Source: a virus
Lineage: Duplodnaviria; Caudoviricetes
Virus record (IMG/VR): IMGVR_UViG_3300037631_000215
Location: 1 to 24,115 of that record
Strand: one strand, 5' to 3'
Length of the DNA stretch: 24,115 nt
Shown: positions 6,533 through 20,879 of the stretch, in pieces
Numbering within the stretch: position 1 is the stretch's first letter
How the letters are laid out: each line of letters begins with the position of its first letter
Notes under the pieces: generated by a model
Told to the model about the DNA's origin: nothing
Database searches by the model: none
Seen by the model: only the letters and a program-made list of their open reading frames with translations
Made by a program: the position numbers and the translations under genes

Positions 6533-9500
6533 ATGGCAAGAGTTTCAGTAGCCAGAATTGAAGCGGCTATTCAAAAAGCGGAAGCTCTTGGAGATACGGC
6601 TAATGCCAACCAACTACGCGCTGCGTTAGCAAGGAGCGCACCACCTGCCCCGACTATACCGACGCAGCCGACAGGCCCGTCAGACCTTGATAGAAGGCGT
6701 GCCGAACTAGAAGCTAGGATAGCTGCAAGAGAAGCCGCACCAGTCGCACCTACAGAAACAGGGTTCTTTGAAGACATTACCTCTGGATTCGGTGCAGGTG
6801 TTGTCGGTGTAGGTGAGATGGCTGCACTTGGTCTTGCCGCTCCGTTGGAAGAAGAAAACGAACTTGCCGCCCGCGAGCGTATTCAGTCCGTTGCTGAGTC
6901 TTTTCGTCCCGAAGGTGGTGACCCAGACTCTGTTACCTACAAACTAAGTTCTGCGCTTGGTTCTATTGCTGGCCTCGCTGCTGTCCCCGCTGCCGCAGCA
7001 TTTACTCCTGTAGGTACTGTCGGTGCTCTTGGCCTTGGCGCGTTAGCCGCTGGTGCCGCTGGTGCTGGTGAGGCAAGTGAACGTGCCCGTGCAGCCGACG
7101 CTACAGAAGAAGAGCGTGGGTCAGCCACCCTGCGTGGTACAGCAATCGGCCTGCTGGACGTACTGCCCATCGCACGGGTATTGCCGCTAAGTAAGATGCC
7201 CGAACTCGCCAAGCTAGTAGATAAGATACCGCCTGAGAAGGTAGAGACTATTGGCGAACGTATCTACAGCGCAGGTATAACCGGCGGTGCGGAAGCCGCA
7301 CAGGAAGCCGCGTCTAACGTCTTACAGAACTTGAACGAGCAGGAGTACAACGCCGCTGCTGAGACGTTTGGTGGTACCGCAGAAGAAGCCGCATTGGGTG
7401 GTGGTGCCGGTGCTATCTTGCAGGGTCTTGTTGACCTGTTCGCCCCACGCAGAGGCGCTAAGACTGTTGGTGATACTGTTGCTCCCGAAGAAGCTCCACC
7501 ACGCCTCGAAGAAGATCAAGTACAGGGTGAGCTGTTTGCACGTCCTACACAGACAGTTGAGCCGGATACAGGCGGAGCACTTACCGACTTCAATGTAGAC
7601 CAGATTAATTCTGCGGTAGAAAGACTTACCGCACGGGGGGTTGCGCCAAACACAATTACTGAAGAGGCTGTGTTTGACGAAATCCTAGCCGCTGAAGAAC
7701 GAGCGGACGCGGCTGCACCAGAACAGTTAACTATCGAAGGCGCAATTGACGCCGCCGAAACTGCTGAAGTCCAAGCCATGATCGACGCAGATGAGACTGC
7801 CGAAATCGAAGCTATGGTGGCAGAAGATGACGCTGCTAAAGCCGCTGCTGATGTAGAACGGGCGCAGGCCAGAAAAAGGTCTGAAAGGGAAACCGCTATC
7901 GGGCAGCAGGTGGATGAAGAACTAGACGCCACTGAAACTAGACGCCGTGAAATACTGGCAGACGTAGTAGAGAAGCAACCTACACGGCAGCTTGGTACGT
8001 TACGTACTAGGTTCTCCCGCGCCTTGGAAGAAGTGAACCTTGATCCAGAGCCTACGGCAGCCGAAAACGCTTCTATGGAACGGGTAATAGATATAAGCCG
8101 TGCAGAGCCTGTACCGCAGGATGATCTTCCTTCTGACTCTGATGTAGCAGCAATAGAAGCGCGGATACGAGAAGCGCGTGAAGATGAAGGAATCACTGAT
8201 ACTTCAGAACTACGTCAAGAATCTTTCGCTGGGTTGGGTCGCAGAGAAGCGCCTACCGAACAAGAGGCCACGCCCGAACCACGCATAATCACCGAAGAAG
8301 ATCTTACTACCGCTGGGTTCAAATCCAATGCTGCTGTACGTAAACGTGTTACGGGTAAAGATCTAAACGATCCAGAAGTCCGGGCAGATCTAGTTAAGGC
8401 TGGACAAAGGTTCAAGAGCCAAGAAGTTAAGACTGGTGTAGACCGTCTACTGCAAGGAGTACCTAGTGAGCAACGTGATTTATTTGCCGACACCAAAAGA
8501 GAACCTGTCGCAGCAGGAAGTGGAACAGGCGATGCAGTTGATCTACAGAGCGTGGAAGTCCCTACAGGACGTGCGAATACCGTGGAATCTGGCCCATCTG
8601 TCGGAGGAGCAGTGGCAGATGCTGGAGGAGGCACTGGACGATCTGTTGCTGGAGAAGGAAGAGAGCAAACTACATTAACGCCAACCCGTGAGGTTAAGCC
8701 TGAAATAGCTGATGCAGGACGTGTTTTAGCTGCCGCTAGACGCGCTATGGCAGAAGCAGAAGAGGCTGTAGCGGCGAAGCCCACACAGAAGAATCAACGC
8801 GCCTTAAAACAGGCAGAGAGGCGGTTTGCTCAGGCGGTTGGATTGCTAAACCAACGATTGGCTGATGTAGATACGCAGGCCATACCTGAAGAGACTGTAG
8901 AGCTGCAACGTCGTGCAGGGCAACAAATGTCAGCTACTGGCATTAGACCAGCTATGGCTGCTGCCGCACCAACTACCGTAGAAGAGGTTACGGCGAAAGA
9001 ACCTACAGTCGAAGAAGCCCGGACAACCGAACAACAAGCTGCTGACAAGCAAAGTCTTTTAGCTGAACGTCGTAAGGCTCGTGACGAACTAATGGCTGCT
9101 GATCCCGACCTAAGCAAAGCTGAAGCCATGCGAATAGCATCTGGGCAGGTTCTTTACGCCCCTCCAAGAGAATATCTTGAGGCACTGGATGCCCCACTAC
9201 CAGACGTTGCCGCTAAAGCAGTGCTCAACAATGAATTACGTCGCGCCCTGCTAGATATAGCTGACAAGTCAGGAGATAAGTTCGTATCTCGCGTAGCCAA
9301 GCGACTGTCTGAGTTTACTGGTGACACTAGAATACTGGCGGTACCGGCAAGCCAATTAGGTAAAGTAGATGGGCAGCAAGTTGATGGGCGTTTCATAACC
9401 GCTGATAACACCATCGTGCTGAACAGGAACTTTTCTAACACTCAGGTACTACTACATGAGATGGCGCACGCAGCGACAATCAATGTTCTACGTAACCCGT

Positions 9501-12500
9501 CGCATCCAACTACCAAGAAGCTGACGAAGCTGTACGAAAGCAGCAAGGAGTATCTGGATCAGGAGTATGGGTCTACGAATGTAGCAGAGTTTGTTGCCGA
9601 AGCGTTTACCAACCCAGAGTTCCAGAGCCAGCTAGCTCGGATCAACCCAGACGGTAAGCCACTCAGTATCTGGCAAGAGATTATTCGTACGGTATCCAAT
9701 CTGCTTGGGTTGGGCAAAGAGCGCGGCACTGCACAGCGCGAAGCTCAACGCCTAATCGAAGACATACTGGCACCTGCTGCCAAGCACCGTGGCGCACCTG
9801 CACTGAACTCGCTGTCTACACGCGATGGTGTACCCAAGGTAATAGACACCATAGCCACACCCAAAGGCACAGTAGCCGATTCCGTCAAGAAAGTTACCGA
9901 TGAGTTCAGAGCTTTGACGGGTGTTGGTACTAAAGGCGGTGGGCCACTGAAGAAAGCCCTACTGTCGCTGATGCCGAACCAAGCAGCGCAGGACATCATA
10001 GAAGATGCCGGTGTAGTCGGATCTGATAAGGTCTTTACAGCTATTGAACTACAGCGCGGCGACCTGAACCGTAACGAAGCCTCTGTACGTGCGGTATTGC
10101 AGCCCATACGTGAGTGGGGTGCGAAGCAGTCTAAAGAGACGATGGATGCGTGGAACAACTTAATTTACGACAGCACCGTTGACCAAGTAGACCCAGAGCT
10201 AACGCTGCAAGAAGCGAAAGATCGTTATAAACAGCAGACTATAGAACTCGAAGACGACGCTGGTAACATCACGACGCAGCTAAAGATAGACCGCTACAAA
10301 GAACTGCGGGCAATCTACGACAGCAAAACGGTTGGTGCCGATGGTCGGCGGGCGTACTCAAACTTACGTAAGCTGTACAAAGATCAGTACACGCAGATGA
10401 CCGCTGCACTGGAAGGCCGTATCGACGGACTGCCTATAGAAGAACAAGCAAAGGCTAATCTGAAGCAGGGCATCTACAACAAGATGCTTGAGAACACCAA
10501 GCTAGAGCCGTACTTCCCATTGACACGTACTGGTTCGTATTTCTTGGATGTAAGAGATCCAGATGAAGGTATCAACTCGGCAGTGTTTGCCTTTGAAAGC
10601 GGCGGGGCACGGCTACGCGCTATGGAAGAGTACGCCAAACAAGGCTACAAAGTAGACGCTTTTGACGCAAGTGATACCGCTTCGTACAAAGAAGCGCCGT
10701 CAGGGTCTTTTGTGTCTAGTGTGTTAGGGCTAACTAACGCGGCAAAAACTGGCCTCCCCGCAGATCAGAAACAGCAGTTTGAAGCGGTGGAAGAACAGAT
10801 CGTACGGTTGTTCGTGGAGCACCTACCCGAATCTTCGTTTGCTAGGTCTCTGCTAGGACGTAAAGGTACTCAGGGTTACGATGTAGACGCTATAGATGCG
10901 GCACGTACGAAAGCCTTTGATCTTGGTCGGCAGGTTGCCCGTATTAAGAACTCTAGGCTGATAGACCAAGCAACGCAGGAAGTTATCGAAGCTAACCCAG
11001 AGATGCGTGGTAGCGTGGAACTAGAAGAAATACAGAACCGTGCTAAGTTCGCTGCAAGCCCTCCTCTGGACAATTACGCAAAAAATGCAAATCGCTTTGC
11101 GTTCCTATACACAATCGGCTTCAACGCCTCGTCCGCGTTAGTTAACCTGTCTCAAATACCCCTATTCGCATACCCCATGCTGGCAGGTAGGTATGGGTTT
11201 AACGCGACCAAGACAGCATTAGGAGGCTCCACTAAGTTGTTTATGGGTTCTCCAAAGAACCGAACCTCGGAGAGCCTGTTTGGTGACGAGCAAACGCCAA
11301 GGTCTGTAAAAGACGCCTTGATGAAGGGCGACCTAAATGCTGCTAGGGCGGCACTGGCAGACTCGGCAATGCCTTCGATAGAAAACTACTACACGATAAC
11401 TCGTGACGCTGAAGGTAGGCCCACCTACACGGTACGAAAAGACCTAGACCTAGACAGCGACAGGGTTACAGAGTTGGAGGAGATGATCCCGCTAGTAACG
11501 CTTGCAGAGCGTCGTGGGCAACTTAATTCGTCTTTCATAGCAGACACCCTTAGCACCAGTGAAGCGGGTCGTAAGATGAGCTTCATGGATAAGGTTACAA
11601 ACGCTTCAGCATTTATGTTTCACGAAGCGGAAGTAATGAATCGCCAAGTGACCATGATGGCAGCGTATAAGCTAGCACTAAAGAAATTAGTGGGAAGTAA
11701 GAAACCTACAGCGGAGCAACAGCAGCAAGCCGCTGAACAGGCCATATATGAGACCCAGCAGATTAACGGTGGTGCAACGCTAGAGACTGGGCCACGCCTA
11801 GCAAGAAAAGGCATTGGTCGAGTAGCTTTGATGTACAAGACCTACGGCATCCAGATGTATTACACGATGCTGAAATCCGCACGACAGTTAGCGAAGAACA
11901 TAGCCCCCGGCGATGACGCGCAAAGTAGAGCCTTACGCGCAGAAGCCTTCAAACAGCTTGCGGGAGTTCACTTATCCGCGCTCTTCTTCGCTGGGGCACA
12001 GGGTCTGCCGCTATATGGCGCTGTCGCCATGCTTCACGATCTCCTCAAGGAAGACTACGAAGAGGATGCAGATACTGCATTGCGCGGCTACCTAGATAAC
12101 GATGCGCTATTCAAAGGCGCTCTGTCCGAGATAACCGGTCTTGACGTGTCACAGCGTGTGAAGCTGACCGACTTGCTGTTTGAGGCCGACAGGTTTAACA
12201 GCGACCCTTCGCCGGAAGAAGAGTTTGCTCACCTGTTCGGTGGCCCTGCATGGAGCGTGTACTCTAGAGGAAGAAAGGGTGTAGATAAGATAGCTGACGG
12301 TGAACTGCTGGCAGGTATAGAAGATATGATGCCGGGCGCTGTACGTAACCTGTATAGAGCTGTTTACAAGTACCCGCATGACGAAGGTATCCTGACTCGC
12401 CGTGGCGACCCCGTATACGACGACATCACGAACGGTGACTTATTCTCTCAGCTATTAGGCTTCCCACCCACCGAATACACTAGGGCTATGGAAGAGACAT

Positions 12501-12790
12501 CTGCTGCCAAACGTCTGGATGTGGCTGCCCAAACTGCGCGGCGCAAGATACTCAAACGCTACTATGTAGCCTTACGTTTCGGTGATAATGACGGTGCCCT
12601 AGAGGCACTGGACGACATGATGGAGTTTAACCAGTCTGAGGCTGTACAACTGAACCCAGCCGCGTTCATCTCATCTGACACCATAGAACGGTCTCTAAAC
12701 AGGCACATGGCTACTACTGCCAAGATGCACAATGGTGTGCTGTTATCTCCTTATGTAAAGACAGCAGCGGATCAAGAAGGGTACTTGTAA
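6533..12790 (+). CDS. Giant internal virion/large polyvalent-type protein with zincin-like metallopeptidase (HEMAH) and a PLxRFG-like C-terminal region
   Basis: 2085 aa with N-terminal Gly/Ala hydrophobic segments, VLLHEMAH (HEMAH at 9455-9469) plus downstream EFVAEAF, and PYFPLTRTG (about 10508-10534). It is the last gene of the structural operon. Confidence 0.75.
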   Translation: MARVSVARIEAAIQKAEALGDTANANQLRAALARSAPPAPTIPTQPTGPSDLDRRRAELEARIAAREAAPVAPTETGFFEDITSGFGAGVVGVGEMAALGLAAPLEEENELAARERIQSVAESFRPEGGDPDSVTYKLSSALGSIAGLAAVPAAAAFTPVGTVGALGLGALAAGAAGAGEASERARAADATEEERGSATLRGTAIGLLDVLPIARVLPLSKMPELAKLVDKIPPEKVETIGERIYSAGITGGAEAAQEAASNVLQNLNEQEYNAAAETFGGTAEEAALGGGAGAILQGLVDLFAPRRGAKTVGDTVAPEEAPPRLEEDQVQGELFARPTQTVEPDTGGALTDFNVDQINSAVERLTARGVAPNTITEEAVFDEILAAEERADAAAPEQLTIEGAIDAAETAEVQAMIDADETAEIEAMVAEDDAAKAAADVERAQARKRSERETAIGQQVDEELDATETRRREILADVVEKQPTRQLGTLRTRFSRALEEVNLDPEPTAAENASMERVIDISRAEPVPQDDLPSDSDVAAIEARIREAREDEGITDTSELRQESFAGLGRREAPTEQEATPEPRIITEEDLTTAGFKSNAAVRKRVTGKDLNDPEVRADLVKAGQRFKSQEVKTGVDRLLQGVPSEQRDLFADTKREPVAAGSGTGDAVDLQSVEVPTGRANTVESGPSVGGAVADAGGGTGRSVAGEGREQTTLTPTREVKPEIADAGRVLAAARRAMAEAEEAVAAKPTQKNQRALKQAERRFAQAVGLLNQRLADVDTQAIPEETVELQRRAGQQMSATGIRPAMAAAAPTTVEEVTAKEPTVEEARTTEQQAADKQSLLAERRKARDELMAADPDLSKAEAMRIASGQVLYAPPREYLEALDAPLPDVAAKAVLNNELRRALLDIADKSGDKFVSRVAKRLSEFTGDTRILAVPASQLGKVDGQQVDGRFITADNTIVLNRNFSNTQVLLHEMAHAATINVLRNPSHPTTKKLTKLYESSKEYLDQEYGSTNVAEFVAEAFTNPEFQSQLARINPDGKPLSIWQEIIRTVSNLLGLGKERGTAQREAQRLIEDILAPAAKHRGAPALNSLSTRDGVPKVIDTIATPKGTVADSVKKVTDEFRALTGVGTKGGGPLKKALLSLMPNQAAQDIIEDAGVVGSDKVFTAIELQRGDLNRNEASVRAVLQPIREWGAKQSKETMDAWNNLIYDSTVDQVDPELTLQEAKDRYKQQTIELEDDAGNITTQLKIDRYKELRAIYDSKTVGADGRRAYSNLRKLYKDQYTQMTAALEGRIDGLPIEEQAKANLKQGIYNKMLENTKLEPYFPLTRTGSYFLDVRDPDEGINSAVFAFESGGARLRAMEEYAKQGYKVDAFDASDTASYKEAPSGSFVSSVLGLTNAAKTGLPADQKQQFEAVEEQIVRLFVEHLPESSFARSLLGRKGTQGYDVDAIDAARTKAFDLGRQVARIKNSRLIDQATQEVIEANPEMRGSVELEEIQNRAKFAASPPLDNYAKNANRFAFLYTIGFNASSALVNLSQIPLFAYPMLAGRYGFNATKTALGGSTKLFMGSPKNRTSESLFGDEQTPRSVKDALMKGDLNAARAALADSAMPSIENYYTITRDAEGRPTYTVRKDLDLDSDRVTELEEMIPLVTLAERRGQLNSSFIADTLSTSEAGRKMSFMDKVTNASAFMFHEAEVMNRQVTMMAAYKLALKKLVGSKKPTAEQQQQAAEQAIYETQQINGGATLETGPRLARKGIGRVALMYKTYGIQMYYTMLKSARQLAKNIAPGDDAQSRALRAEAFKQLAGVHLSALFFAGAQGLPLYGAVAMLHDLLKEDYEEDADTALRGYLDNDALFKGALSEITGLDVSQRVKLTDLLFEADRFNSDPSPEEEFAHLFGGPAWSVYSRGRKGVDKIADGELLAGIEDMMPGAVRNLYRAVYKYPHDEGILTRRGDPVYDDITNGDLFSQLLGFPPTEYTRAMEETSAAKRLDVAAQTARRKILKRYYVALRFGDNDGALEALDDMMEFNQSEAVQLNPAAFISSDTIERSLNRHMATTAKMHNGVLLSPYVKTAADQEGYL
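8466..8678 (+). CDS. Putative overprinted 70-aa protein nested (+1 frame) in the giant virion gene
   Basis: AAGGAG at 8454-8459 lies 6 nt before GTG. The product reads as a protein-like amphipathic sequence (MSNVIYLP...LAHLSEEQWQMLEEALDDLLLEKEESKLH), and the host frame is a Gly-rich low-complexity linker here. Confidence 0.6.
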   Translation: MSNVIYLPTPKENLSQQEVEQAMQLIYRAWKSLQDVRIPWNLAHLSEEQWQMLEEALDDLLLEKEESKLH

Positions 12791-18513: not shown

Positions 18514-20044
18514 GTATTTCTTTGTAAAGGTCGATAATTTTTGTATGTGTGTCTATTTTGTTATCTAGTAATGCGTACACACGCTTTTCTATGTGAGATC
18601 CTTGTAACTGTACCACTGTGCACTTATGGTCTTGCCCCGCTCTGTGGATGCGAGCGTTAGCCTGTGCGTATGTTTCTACCGAACTGGTTGGCCCCCACCA
18701 TACGATTGTATTGGCAGCGGTCAGCGTAACGCCGTGTGCCGCAGCCTGCGGTTGGATGACCAGCACCCGTGGGTTGTCCGTCTCTTGGAACTCCTTGAAT
18801 ATGCGCGTCCGCTCTGTGGCACTGACAGCCCCACTAATGACTTCGGTAGGTATCTTGTCCTTGCGTAGCTTGTCAGTAAGTAGCTGGATCGTATGCTTGA
18901 ACGGCACGAACACGAGTACCTTTTTGCTGGACTCGTCGATTACCTCACGCAGTACCTTGTATCGGTGCTTGATGTCGAACTCCACCACCTCTTTGTCATC
19001 GGTGTACACCGCACCAGAGCTTATTTGCAGTAGCTTGTTCATGTTGACCGCCGCTGTAGCTGCCGTGACTGTCTCTTCCGCAGCCTCCATGACCATGCGG
19101 TTCTTCAGTTCTTTGTAATACTTCTCTTGCTGACGAGTCAGCGGTACCTCACGGGTTGTATACACGATGTCAGGTAGGTCAAGACACTCTTCCTTGGTAA
19201 ACCGTATCGCCGGTTGCAGTGCACTAAATACTGTCTCGGTGGCATCGGGCTTGGGCACCCACTTGAAGTTAGTCACTTTGTACATGACCTGATCGCGGAA
19301 CGAGCCAAAGAAGCGTGGCACAGCTTTCGGGTTAACAAGTTTAGCCAGACCGTACGCATCCAGCGGACTCTGTGCAGCGGGTGTACCCGTCATCATCCAC
19401 AGCCACGTATCAGGGCTGAGTAGCTTGTTGAGTGTCTTCCACCTGTCAGTCTGGGCATTCTTGTAGTGCGTGGCTTCATCTACAATCACTAGGTCAAACC
19501 CACCGTTGGCTATGGCGTCCGCCACGATTGCTACACCGTCGTAATTTATTATCACGAACTCCGCATCGCTTTCGATTACAGCGGCTCTCTTCTTTGCCGA
19601 ACCATGAGCCACGTCTACCTTGCGGTGCATAGCAAAACTAAACAGGTCTTCTCGCCACGCCGAATCCATAATAGATAGAGGGCAGATGACCAGAACACGT
19701 TTGATACGGCCTTGCCTCATCAGGAAGTCCGCTGCCCAGATAGCACTAGCGGTCTTGCCTGTACCCTGCTCGTTGAAACAGAACGCACGTTTGTTGAGTG
19801 TCAGGAACCCTGCCGTGGTCTTCTGATGCTCGAACGGTTTGTACTTGCCCGTCCATTTATACTTACCTTCGATGGGCGATGGCGCTTTTATGTTTAGATT
19901 CTTGAGTACGTGAGCCTCGTCTACGCCCCAGTTAACCACCACACGGTTACCTGATAATTCCTTACTCTTTGGTATGACCTCGGTAACTTTCCGTGGATCA
20001 CGTAGCCGCAGTAGCAGCGCCTTGTTATCTATTACTTTCACCAC
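18506..20044 (-). CDS. SNF2-family (SF2) DNA helicase
   Basis: Motifs EQGTGKT, VICPLS, IVDEATH, MTGTP, GVTLT and QANARIHRAGQ. Confidence 0.92.
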   Translation of the reverse strand: MVKVIDNKALLLRLRDPRKVTEVIPKSKELSGNRVVVNWGVDEAHVLKNLNIKAPSPIEGKYKWTGKYKPFEHQKTTAGFLTLNKRAFCFNEQGTGKTASAIWAADFLMRQGRIKRVLVICPLSIMDSAWREDLFSFAMHRKVDVAHGSAKKRAAVIESDAEFVIINYDGVAIVADAIANGGFDLVIVDEATHYKNAQTDRWKTLNKLLSPDTWLWMMTGTPAAQSPLDAYGLAKLVNPKAVPRFFGSFRDQVMYKVTNFKWVPKPDATETVFSALQPAIRFTKEECLDLPDIVYTTREVPLTRQQEKYYKELKNRMVMEAAEETVTAATAAVNMNKLLQISSGAVYTDDKEVVEFDIKHRYKVLREVIDESSKKVLVFVPFKHTIQLLTDKLRKDKIPTEVISGAVSATERTRIFKEFQETDNPRVLVIQPQAAAHGVTLTAANTIVWWGPTSSVETYAQANARIHRAGQDHKCTVVQLQGSHIEKRVYALLDNKIDTHTKIIDLYKEILD

Positions 20045-20262
20045 TAGGACTCCGGCTTAAATAGAACAAGTTGGTGTTTAGCCAAAGCATTCAAGAGTTC
20101 AAAGAAAGAATCTGCACCAAGCCCATTTATGTTATGTATATCTTTTGCAGTCCACTCAGCCAAGTCGCTTACATATTCAATGCCCCTACCCCCTAAACAG
20201 TTTCGTGTGCGTGCATTAAGGCTTAACTCCTGTATACGCATCTCTGTCTTGATTGAATTCAT
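20044..20262 (-). CDS. Stand-alone RNA polymerase alpha subunit C-terminal domain (alpha-CTD)-like protein
   Basis: IQELSLNARTRNCL...IEYVSDL...NGLGADSFFEL aligns without gaps to E. coli RpoA VDDLELTVRSANCL...IHYIGDL...PNLGKKSLTEI (recalled sequence). A duplicated GGAGAAC RBS lies upstream. Confidence 0.85.
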   Translation of the reverse strand: MNSIKTEMRIQELSLNARTRNCLGGRGIEYVSDLAEWTAKDIHNINGLGADSFFELLNALAKHQLVLFKPES

Positions 20263-20283: not shown

Positions 20284-20481
20284 AAAAAAGCGCGAAGTGG
20301 GTGTCCACTACACGCGGTTAAAAACCCCGCCTTCGGTCACACGGACGGGAACGTGTGCAAAAAACCGCCTAATGACTATAGGAACTGCAAACCGGTAAGG
20401 CATCAGACGGCTGACCTAAAAAGTCCCGCCATACGACCACACCGGACGGGAACGGTGCCAACAGGCAGGAAGTGCCTTGGC
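20284..20481 (-). ncRNA. Putative structured RNA array: two pseudoknot repeats alternating with hairpins, each followed by U5-6
   Basis: Identical 12-mer cggacgggaacg at 20342-20353 and 20443-20454 inside covarying stems. The loops are complementary to downstream GGCGGG. G-U pairs and U-tracts indicate the - strand. Confidence 0.6.
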
Positions 20482-20583
20482 CTAAACTGTTATCGCTAAA
20501 GTAAGAACTAAAGACAGTACGTTGATCGCCACGATAATGCCGATACCGACCAGTATGCCTGTCTTTATATCTTCCTTACTCAC
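20482..20583 (-). CDS. 33-aa single-pass membrane peptide (below the ORF-track cutoff)
   Basis: GTG start overlaps the HNH stop (GTGA). It translates as MSKEDIKTGILVGIGIIVAINVLSLVLTLAITV*. Confidence 0.6.
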   Translation of the reverse strand: MSKEDIKTGILVGIGIIVAINVLSLVLTLAITV

Positions 20584-20879
20584 TGTCTACGTCGAGGTCT
20601 ATGCCCCGCTTTCTTGGGCTTCTGCCCGTTACGGCTGCGATTAGCGCTCTTGCTCTCTATACGCACGCCGTCTTTGTTGCTGCCACCCTTACTCAACATC
20701 TTGTTGTGGCTGACATCCTTACCTTCCCGCTTATCCGCTCTGCCATCTTTGTTAGCATCACGCCCTACCTTATCCATAGCACGCCTAGCACGTTGCCTCT
20801 CCATTCGGGCTTCGTGTGCAGGGCTACCCACTGGCGGGTTCTTCTGCTTCTTACGGTCTGCTTTGTTCTTGTACGGCAT
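20580..20879 (-). CDS. HNH-like small basic endonuclease
   Basis: KDVSH....SKGGSN....RIES.SANRSRN matches a beta-beta-alpha-Me-like pattern. The likely start is ATG 20879, coupled to the upstream stop (TAATG). Confidence 0.65.
   Translation of the reverse strand: MPYKNKADRKKQKNPPVGSPAHEARMERQRARRAMDKVGRDANKDGRADKREGKDVSHNKMLSKGGSNKDGVRIESKSANRSRNGQKPKKAGHRPRRRQ

What the first reader, a model, noticed from the sequence alone, without database searches (positions are those of the whole stretch)
20284..20481. Non-coding array of covarying RNA pseudoknots alternating with hairpins, each closed by a U-tract
Seen (read on the - strand): module A (20458-20418) is GCACCG-UUCCCGUC-CGGUGU-ggucguau-GGCGGGAC-UUUUU. 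Module C (20358-20320) is gCACACG-UUCCCGUC-CGUGUG-accgaa-GGCGGGG-UUUUU. The two share an identical 8-nt loop, but their stems differ while keeping pairing (compensatory change). Each loop pairs 6-7 bp with the downstream GGCGGG, giving an H-type pseudoknot. Between them, hairpin B (20412-20359) pairs AGCCGUCUGAUG with CAUUAGGCGGUU, reuses the same CCGUC/GGCGG helix, and ends in U6. Hairpin D (20316-20284) also ends in U6. A further hairpin containing UUCCUGCC lies at 20481-20457. The G-U wobbles imply the element works as RNA on the - strand. Inference: it may be a tandem attenuator/switch controlling the alpha-CTD and helicase genes. It could instead be processed into small pseudoknot RNAs that act as decoys, by analogy with type III TA ToxI pseudoknot repeats and phage pseudo-ToxI mimics. 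I do not recognise it as a known family.
Basis: partly seen in the sequence, partly recalled or inferred. Interest (0 to 1): 0.85.

Follow-up and report, generated by a model that had tools for sequence, protein, structure and literature searches.

The report
Knotted RNA arrays in marine phages
The gap holds two head-to-tail copies of a folded RNA of about 65 bases with no match in Rfam 15, which uncultured phages place in one to four copies right behind stop codons, and which likely works as a roadblock that stops the host's RNA-degrading enzymes, as similar knots do in flaviviruses.

Summary
The pseudoknots are real, but they were parsed too small. Each is the 3' half of a ~65-nt unit: three-way junction (P1, P2, P3) plus a loop-to-tail pseudoknot. 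'Hairpin B' and the 'further hairpin' are the P2 arms of the two units; hairpin D is a separate element. Two searches that left the tested pairing free recovered it. Relatives give 118 distinct units, arrays of 1-4, on the coding strand and starting at the upstream stop codon (71 of 86). No Rfam match; the only real matches among 185,579 prokaryote genomes lie on two phage-like contigs. U-tracts are not conserved (41 of 118), so an attenuator chain is unlikely; hardly any base is invariant, which argues against a ribozyme. Connectivity, fixed P1/P3, free P2 and a 14-16-nt ring match flavivirus class 1 xrRNAs, but PK1 and the short J2/3 are missing: works-like, not a member. Best reading: a 5'-to-3' nuclease roadblock (0.4), untested. 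Against it: some arrays end a transcription unit with no gene to protect. The scan probably noted this family before on other DNA (e1-9763377, e1-5926483).

The parts
20424..20485 (-). Unit 1: P1 5' 20482-20479, P2 20477-20463, P3 20458-20453/20444-20439, loop L3 20452-20445, P1 3' 20438-20435, linker 20434-20431, pseudoknot strand 20430-20424
   Evidence: (56.7 bits; this unit was in the training set)
20325..20419 (-). Cleanly absent from close relatives
   Evidence: (51.7 bits, not in the training set); absent in L123; contigs skip 98-99 nt here
20284..20316 (-). Hairpin D with U6 tail, just before the ribosome site; separate element, terminator-like or operator-like
   Evidence: 39 of 80 loci of the HNH-like gene, also where no unit is present; stem changes keep pairing; -15.5 kcal/mol
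20482..20583 (-).
   Evidence: homologues in 16 of 80 loci
20580..20879 (-). Small HNH-like gene (label by eye; only phrog_4590, unknown function, no Pfam match)
20044..20262 (-). RNA polymerase alpha-CTD-like gene, an accessory cassette
   Evidence: PF03118 E 5.9e-12; absent from close relatives such as L123-L125
18506..20044 (-). SNF2-type helicase gene

Best explanation
The two units are members of an uncatalogued phage RNA family with a three-way junction and a loop-to-tail pseudoknot, which likely folds into a ring around its own 5' strand and likely stalls host nucleases that work from the 5' end (RNase J, or scanning RNase E). Shown: the secondary structure by covariation, the coding-strand orientation, the start at the upstream stop codon, arrays of 1-4 that gain and lose whole units. 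Inferred: P1 and the pseudoknot form together; with only 3-5 nt between them, the strand P3'-P1'-linker would close a 14-16-nt ring through which the 5' strand passes; when decay of the long phage mRNA reaches the unit it would halt, leaving a stable RNA whose 5' end lies just before P1. Inside operons this would preserve the downstream genes, whose ribosome site lies free 13-25 nt behind the unit in 47 of 88 arrays; at operon ends it would leave a short non-coding product, like flavivirus sfRNA. Tandem copies would add protection.
For: Loop left free in the search: 33 of 102 distinct hits pair loop with tail over 6 or more bases, none over 5, 69 over 4 or fewer; 32 of the 33 also have the P1 partner, against 19 of 69. 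P3 left free: 90 of 107 distinct hits form it. 15 of 19 pairs change on both sides in a 57-row alignment, 0 of 500 shuffles as high, slid controls 35-54% paired against 92% (rows were chosen for pairing, so this alone is not independent). P1 4 bp and P3 5 bp fixed, P2 free, ring 14-16 nt in 118 of 118 (the descriptor allowed 14-18); class 1 xrRNAs show the same pattern of fixed P1/P3, free P2, a 15-16-nt ring, tandem copies and non-canonical pairs at the outer end of P1 (PMC8374639 parts 1-2; PMC7527734 passages). An unpredicted fifth P1 pair covaries (A.G 49, U-A 7, G-C 3 of 70 cores; shuffled mean 44.7, 0 of 10,000 reach 59). xrRNAs block bacterial RNase J1 (PMC8374639) and pseudoknots impede scanning by RNase E in proportion to coaxial pairs (PMC9943677 section 11). 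Shape is kept while hardly any base is invariant.
Against: No functional test exists; the RNA runs on hand were contigs and show no ends. Two defining tertiary features of class 1 xrRNAs are missing: J3/1 is empty in 95 of 118, so PK1 cannot form, and J2/3 is 4-5 nt in 89 of 118 instead of 0-1. In several unrelated loci (L218, L429, L048/L417; by eye also L033, L213) the array ends a transcription unit and abuts the stop of a convergent gene, so no downstream gene is protected. The firmest positional constant is the upstream stop, which suits a 3'-end protector equally. In 37 of 88 arrays the stop overlaps P1, so each terminating ribosome would have to melt the unit. The hosts are unknown, so the presence of RNase J is unknown. 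The ring is a geometric inference, not a model; P1 and the pseudoknot could also be alternatives. 25 of 80 close relatives lack the unit at this site, so it is dispensable or replaceable.
Confidence: 0.4

Rival explanations
1. A 3'-end protector and boundary for the upstream gene, working like REP elements: transcription runs through, endonucleases cut downstream, and 3'-to-5' exonucleases trim back to the pseudoknot, which stabilises the upstream mRNA.
For: 71 of 86 first units start within -20..+8 of a sense stop and 11 more follow another unit; 67 of 88 within -10..+8 against 14% at control positions; arrays fill whole gaps between convergent genes. REP behaviour is recalled, not read (search found no fitting paper).
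Against: A plain hairpin would do; it does not explain fixed P1/P3 lengths, the short linker or the A.G pair. Dense phage gene packing alone puts intergenic elements next to stops, and the UUAG consensus itself creates stops.
Confidence: 0.2
2. The units are cut out at the A/U-rich spacers and accumulate as small RNAs that decoy a host defence protein, as pseudo-ToxI does for ToxN.
For: Head-to-tail arrays with 0-4 copies among close relatives; copies at operon ends with no gene to regulate; pseudoknot core.
Against: Units differ in sequence and in size (P2 loop 3-38 nt), spacers shrink to 2 nt (L135), no own promoter is seen, and known antitoxins are 34-36-nt H-type repeats with tails that bind the toxin.
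Confidence: 0.13
3. A device acting on ribosomes or RNA polymerase in cis: an insulator that uncouples termination from re-initiation, or a put-like antitermination element.
For: Starts at the stop codon and ends 13-25 nt before the next start in 47 of 88 arrays; hairpin D with U6 lies directly downstream in this phage group.
Against: Stop position varies from -10 to +6, with no fixed spacer as recoding signals need; copies at operon ends; mid-operon arrays of four. put is recalled, not read.
Confidence: 0.12
4. Chain of intrinsic terminators or attenuators in which the pseudoknot helix replaces the terminator stem.
For: G+C-rich helix followed by an A/U-rich tail; 41 of 118 units have 4 or more U; arrays sit where terminators are expected between convergent genes.
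Against: 77 of 118 lack the U run, including operon-end copies L218 and L429; up to four units precede the helicase gene; no conserved alternative structure or sensor is seen.
Confidence: 0.07
5. A self-cleaving ribozyme of a new or HDV-derived class that cuts in front of P1.
For: Phage intergenic arrays are typical homes of small ribozymes (own knowledge); the common loop and the RCUAA tail recall HDV-like ribozymes (recalled).
Against: No Rfam ribozyme match; the HDV P2 stem and a twister-like closing stem are no better than shuffled (2.76 vs 2.85; 3.63 vs 3.64); the loop is wholly paired and changes freely, and the tail C is 69% conserved.
Confidence: 0.06

Closest known systems
Flavivirus class 1 exoribonuclease-resistant RNAs (xrRNA 1a, 1b)
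   Same: Three-way junction P1/P2/P3 with loop L3 paired to the strand after P1; fixed P1 and P3, free P2; ring of about 15 nt; non-canonical pair at the outer end of P1; tandem copies behind a stop codon.
   Different: DNA phage, not an RNA virus of eukaryotes; no PK1; J2/3 of 4-5 nt; longer pseudoknot (6-8 bp); no sequence match to Rfam models; resistance untested.
Type III antitoxins ToxI/AbiQ/CptI and phage TE pseudo-ToxI
   Same: Tandem pseudoknotted RNA units with variable copy number.
   Different: Extra P1 and P2, 60-100 nt, diverse copies, very short spacers, no toxin gene among the neighbours scanned, embedded in operons.
PeSL mobile cassettes of T4-type phages (PMC2839356, abstract)
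   Same: Repeated intergenic modules at variable regions; recombination across them gains and loses units and gene cassettes.
   Different: No promoter and no terminator hairpin in the unit; conserved pseudoknot.
UG27 reverse-transcriptase ncRNA arrays (bioRxiv 10.64898/2026.09.22.753630, abstract)
   Same: Variable arrays of structurally conserved, sequence-diverse RNAs in phages.
   Different: No reverse transcriptase among the window proteins scanned (14 against PHROGs, 11 against Pfam); no constant partner gene.
HDV-like ribozymes
   Same: P3 runs directly into P1; similar-looking loop (recalled).
   Different: No P2, no P4, no invariant catalytic C.

Membership tests
Class 1 xrRNA | Three-way junction with L3 pseudoknot to the 3' strand (PK2) | tested here: met
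Class 1 xrRNA | 15-16-nt ring around the 5' end | tested here: inconclusive
   Strand count gives 14 (72), 15 (15) or 16 (31) nt of 118; no 3D model could be made
Class 1 xrRNA | PK1 between the 5' end and the junction | tested here: not met
   J3/1 empty in 95 of 118; no covariation of 5' bases with the junction among the top 30 pairs
Class 1 xrRNA | 0-1 nt between P2 and P3 | tested here: not met
   4-5 nt in 89 of 118
Class 1 xrRNA | Conserved U.A-U or C.G-C base triple | tested here: inconclusive
   First P3 pair is variable (G.U, C-G, A-U) and shows no covariation with 5' bases; an invariant triple would not show
Class 1 xrRNA | Halts a 5'-to-3' exoribonuclease | not testable with these tools
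   needs an enzyme assay or raw 5'-end reads
Type III antitoxin / pseudo-ToxI | Near-identical short repeats folding as a plain H-type pseudoknot with single-stranded tails | tested here: not met
   against PMC5086642 passages
Type III antitoxin / pseudo-ToxI | Repeats, terminator, then toxin gene (for a full system) | tested here: not met
   Next genes are alpha-CTD-like and helicase; a mimic would not need this
Type III antitoxin / pseudo-ToxI | Neutralises a toxin | not testable with these tools
   bench test
HDV-like ribozyme | P2 stem between the strand before P3 and the 3' end | tested here: not met
   2.76 bp observed vs 2.85 shuffled
HDV-like ribozyme | Invariant catalytic C and conserved L3 | tested here: not met
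   tail C 69%; loops vary with compensating tails
Intrinsic terminator (units 1, 2 and hairpin B) | Stem followed by a conserved U run | tested here: not met
   41 of 118 after the pseudoknot, 1 of 118 after P2; none listed here by the terminator scan
Any Rfam 15 family | Match to a covariance model | tested here: not met
   0 matches to E 5 in the window; 4 sub-threshold matches in 18 loci, none on a unit

The most novel reading that the evidence does not exclude
Marine DNA phages have independently evolved xrRNA-like knots, the first natural exoribonuclease-resistant RNAs acting in bacteria; they travel as a mobile, stackable module among unrelated phages, reshape mRNA decay gene by gene, and at operon ends yield sfRNA-like stable RNAs that trap host nucleases or decoy defence proteins.
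Probability: 0.3. Interest if true: 0.85.

Novelty: new variant of a known kind. Interest (0 to 1): 0.6.

Why it matters
xrRNAs are described from RNA viruses of eukaryotes; the review read here ends on the open question whether they exist more widely. A compact, heavily covarying family with the same wiring in bacterial DNA viruses makes that directly testable with one enzyme assay, and would give phages a protein-free way to steer host RNA decay. A 65-nt element with a free P2 arm that blocks RNase J or RNase E would also be a useful stabilising tag for bacterial RNA engineering. Even if the roadblock idea fails, this is a well-supported uncatalogued RNA family with many natural variants.

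Tried and rejected
Rfam on the window and 18 loci: nothing. tRNA/tmRNA: none. Cultured phages: 3 short chance matches of 27-31 nt among 50,697 records; helicase relatives reach only about 43% identity, so no host could be read off. Prokaryote genomes: 6 pattern matches, 4 without the structure or inside G+C-rich genes, 2 real on phage-like contigs of metagenome bins; their host labels (Sphingobacteriales, Sansalvadorimonas) were not trusted. A closing stem between the bases before P1 and the tail (twister-like) and the HDV P2 stem: no better than shuffled. Pairing of positions -2 and -3 with the linker: no signal (45 of 70 vs 44.0; 34 of 70 vs 39.0). Read-through or frameshift signal: no fixed spacer to the stop. 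Pairing of loop L3 with the alpha-CTD ribosome site in the minimum-energy fold: confined to that cassette, taken as chance. Rows dropped before counting: L202 and L044 (G+C 0.65 and 0.71) from 120 descriptor hits; 13 of 70 distinct cores were left out of alignment A1 (9 for long P2, 4 for doubtful parse) and the window's unit 1 was added under its own coordinates; matches with under 30 nt upstream. Literature searches aimed at a prior description listed none; the library lacks most subscription papers, and supplements of motif surveys and bioRxiv preprints were not seen.

Full report
Setting. The window is an uncultured phage contig: virion-like genes on the + strand and a replication arm on the - strand with DNA polymerase, PD-(D/E)XK exonuclease, a small HNH-like gene, an alpha-CTD-like gene, an SNF2 helicase, an ssDNA-binding protein and a primase. 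The finding lies between the HNH-like and alpha-CTD-like genes. A 33-codon hydrophobic ORF (20583-20482) fills the first part of the gap; it has homologues in 16 of 80 related loci. Habitat is taken as marine from the labels of laid runs and of some contig names; the host is unknown.

Observation. Rfam gives no match in the window and no match on a unit in 18 related loci. A pattern for the loop and its partner hit 120 viral stretches, about 510 estimated in the collection; 83 of 139 matches form the stem under the loop. Reading upstream showed a further stem: four bases before a variable hairpin pair with four bases right after the loop's stem, and they change together (GACC/GGUC, GGUC/GACC, GGGC/GCCC, GGCU/AGCC). 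The unit is thus P1 - P2 hairpin - linker - P3 - loop L3 - P3' - P1' - 3 to 5 nt - strand pairing with L3.

Is the structure real? Because a descriptor that demands pairing proves nothing by itself, two searches left the tested part free. With the loop and tail free, 33 of 102 distinct hits pair over 6-8 bases, none over 5 and 69 over 4 or fewer; 32 of the 33 have an exact P1 partner upstream against 19 of 69; the loops include several unrelated sequences, each with its own complementary tail. With P3 free, 90 of 107 distinct hits form 4-5 bp, 80 of these 90 have an exact P1 partner, and 16 of the other 17 are G+C-rich sequence. The descriptor found 120 distinct units in the loci then held, 118 after dropping two G+C-rich hits, and 0 in 1.22 Mb of shuffled loci. 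The eight highest corrected mutual-information values are all predicted pairs. On a 57-row alignment 92% of cells pair, 15 of 19 pairs change on both sides, and neither shuffles (0 of 500) nor slid structures (35-54%) come near (rows preselected, relatedness not removed). G.U pairs exchange with A-U and G-C, which fixes the strand and points to RNA. The ninth value was unpredicted: the base before P1 covaries with the base after P1' (A.G 49, U-A 7, G-C 3 of 70 cores; 0 of 10,000 shuffles).

Distribution. A covariance model finds two copies in the window and 1-4 copies in 55 of 80 loci of the HNH-like gene, all on the coding strand (my count from the table). The unit also occurs in phages with quite different replication genes, and behind a terminase-small-subunit-like gene (labels by eye). 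Among one genome each of 185,579 prokaryote species a strict pattern matched 6 times; only 2 are real, both on phage-like contigs. No cultured phage has it at blastn sensitivity. Whole units are gained and lost: L123 lacks unit 2 exactly, and contigs of three runs skip 98-99 nt across a 6-nt repeat. Other folded cassettes replace the units at the same site.

Context. In 55 of 58 loci long enough to judge, the coding strand is the unit's strand; 67 of 88 arrays start within -10..+8 of the stop of a sense ORF (control 14%), in 37 the G of UAG is the first base of P1; a ribosome-site-like motif and start follow 13-25 nt behind the last unit in 47 of 88 (lax pattern). A second count gave 71 of 86 behind a stop, 11 behind another unit, 4 otherwise; downstream 64 of 82 had a sense gene within 140 nt. 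Against a purely downstream role, arrays in L218, L429 and L048/L417 end a transcription unit and abut the stop of a convergent gene. U-tracts are not conserved (41 of 118). Hairpin D is a separate element, in 39 of 80 HNH-like loci with or without units and in none of the other phage groups.

Mechanism. Once tandem neighbours are included hardly any base is invariant: the pair closing P3 is G-C 59, U-A 29, U.G 2 of 90, and the first P1 pair and the last loop base also vary. That argues against catalysis or ligand binding and for a mechanical role. What is fixed is geometry: P1 4 bp, P3 5 bp, J3/1 0-1 nt in 115 of 118, linker 3-5 nt, with P2 free. If P1 and the pseudoknot coexist, three to five bases cannot span nine stacked pairs, so the 3' strand would close a 14-16-nt ring around the 5' strand (inference). 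Class 1 xrRNAs are wired this way: three-way junction, L3 pseudoknot, 15-16-nt ring, tandem copies, blocking any 5'-to-3' exoribonuclease including RNase J1 (PMC8374639, parts 1-2 of 5); fixed P1/P3 with free P2 and non-canonical pairs at the outer end of P1 (PMC7527734, passages). In hosts without RNase J, pseudoknots hinder scanning by RNase E (PMC9943677, abstract and section 11). I therefore commit to a 5' roadblock at 0.4. It is not an xrRNA by membership: PK1 cannot form and J2/3 is too long. A REP-like 3' protector (0.2) explains the tie to the upstream stop as well; a decoy (0.13), a ribosome or polymerase device (0.12), a terminator chain (0.07) and a ribozyme (0.06) follow. No call tested function.

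Novelty. No Rfam family and no paper in six targeted searches (listings only) describes it; most subscription papers and motif-survey supplements were not visible. PMC5086642 was seen as passages, PMC2839356 and bioRxiv 10.64898/2026.09.22.753630 as abstracts; REP, put and HDV details are recalled. The xrRNA reading was noted before the scan's notes were opened. Two of those notes, e1-9763377 and e1-5926483, probably describe the same family on other genomes; their sequences could not be compared, and they are not counted as support. Verdict: real, uncatalogued, structure well supported, function untested; new variant of a known kind; interest 0.6.

Noticed in passing
L142:2890-3050, L133, L175, L182, L183, L195: A second folded cassette of about 150 nt (hairpin whose loop can pair with a distant CCACC, nested stems) replaces or follows the units at the same site; no Rfam match.
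   Followed up: no
L139:3060-3140, L130, L140, L183: An 80-nt multi-stem cassette closed by GGGG/CCCC, with stem changes between loci, stacked behind the units.
   Followed up: no
L181:2780-2920, L176, L184-L194, L198, L200: A third cassette family (hairpin loop pairing past an A-rich linker, followed by a second pseudoknot-like element) occupies the site in relatives that lack the units; in L181, L187, L189 followed by 8-9-nt tandem repeats.
   Followed up: no
window 20284-20316 (-): Hairpin D: conserved before the helicase ribosome site in 39 of 80 loci; its 3' strand could alternatively pair with the bases just before the ribosome site. Terminator or translational operator.
   Followed up: partly
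L046:21-86, L152:2850-3000: A 50-codon accessory gene ends inside the 3' half of a unit or its remnant, suggesting that units serve as recombination points for gene cassettes, as PeSLs do.
   Followed up: partly
window 20044-20262 (-): Phage-encoded RNA polymerase alpha-CTD-like protein as an exchangeable cassette before the helicase; possible decoy for host activators.
   Followed up: partly
L429:300-620: Array of units abutting a convergent integrase-like gene (by eye), so some carriers may be temperate.
   Followed up: no
L193:2790-2820: GT dinucleotide run of variable length (L193, L194, L196, L199) behind the HNH-like gene, unusual in a phage.
   Followed up: no
window 6533-12790 (+): 2085-aa protein without Pfam match at the end of the virion arm.
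   Followed up: no
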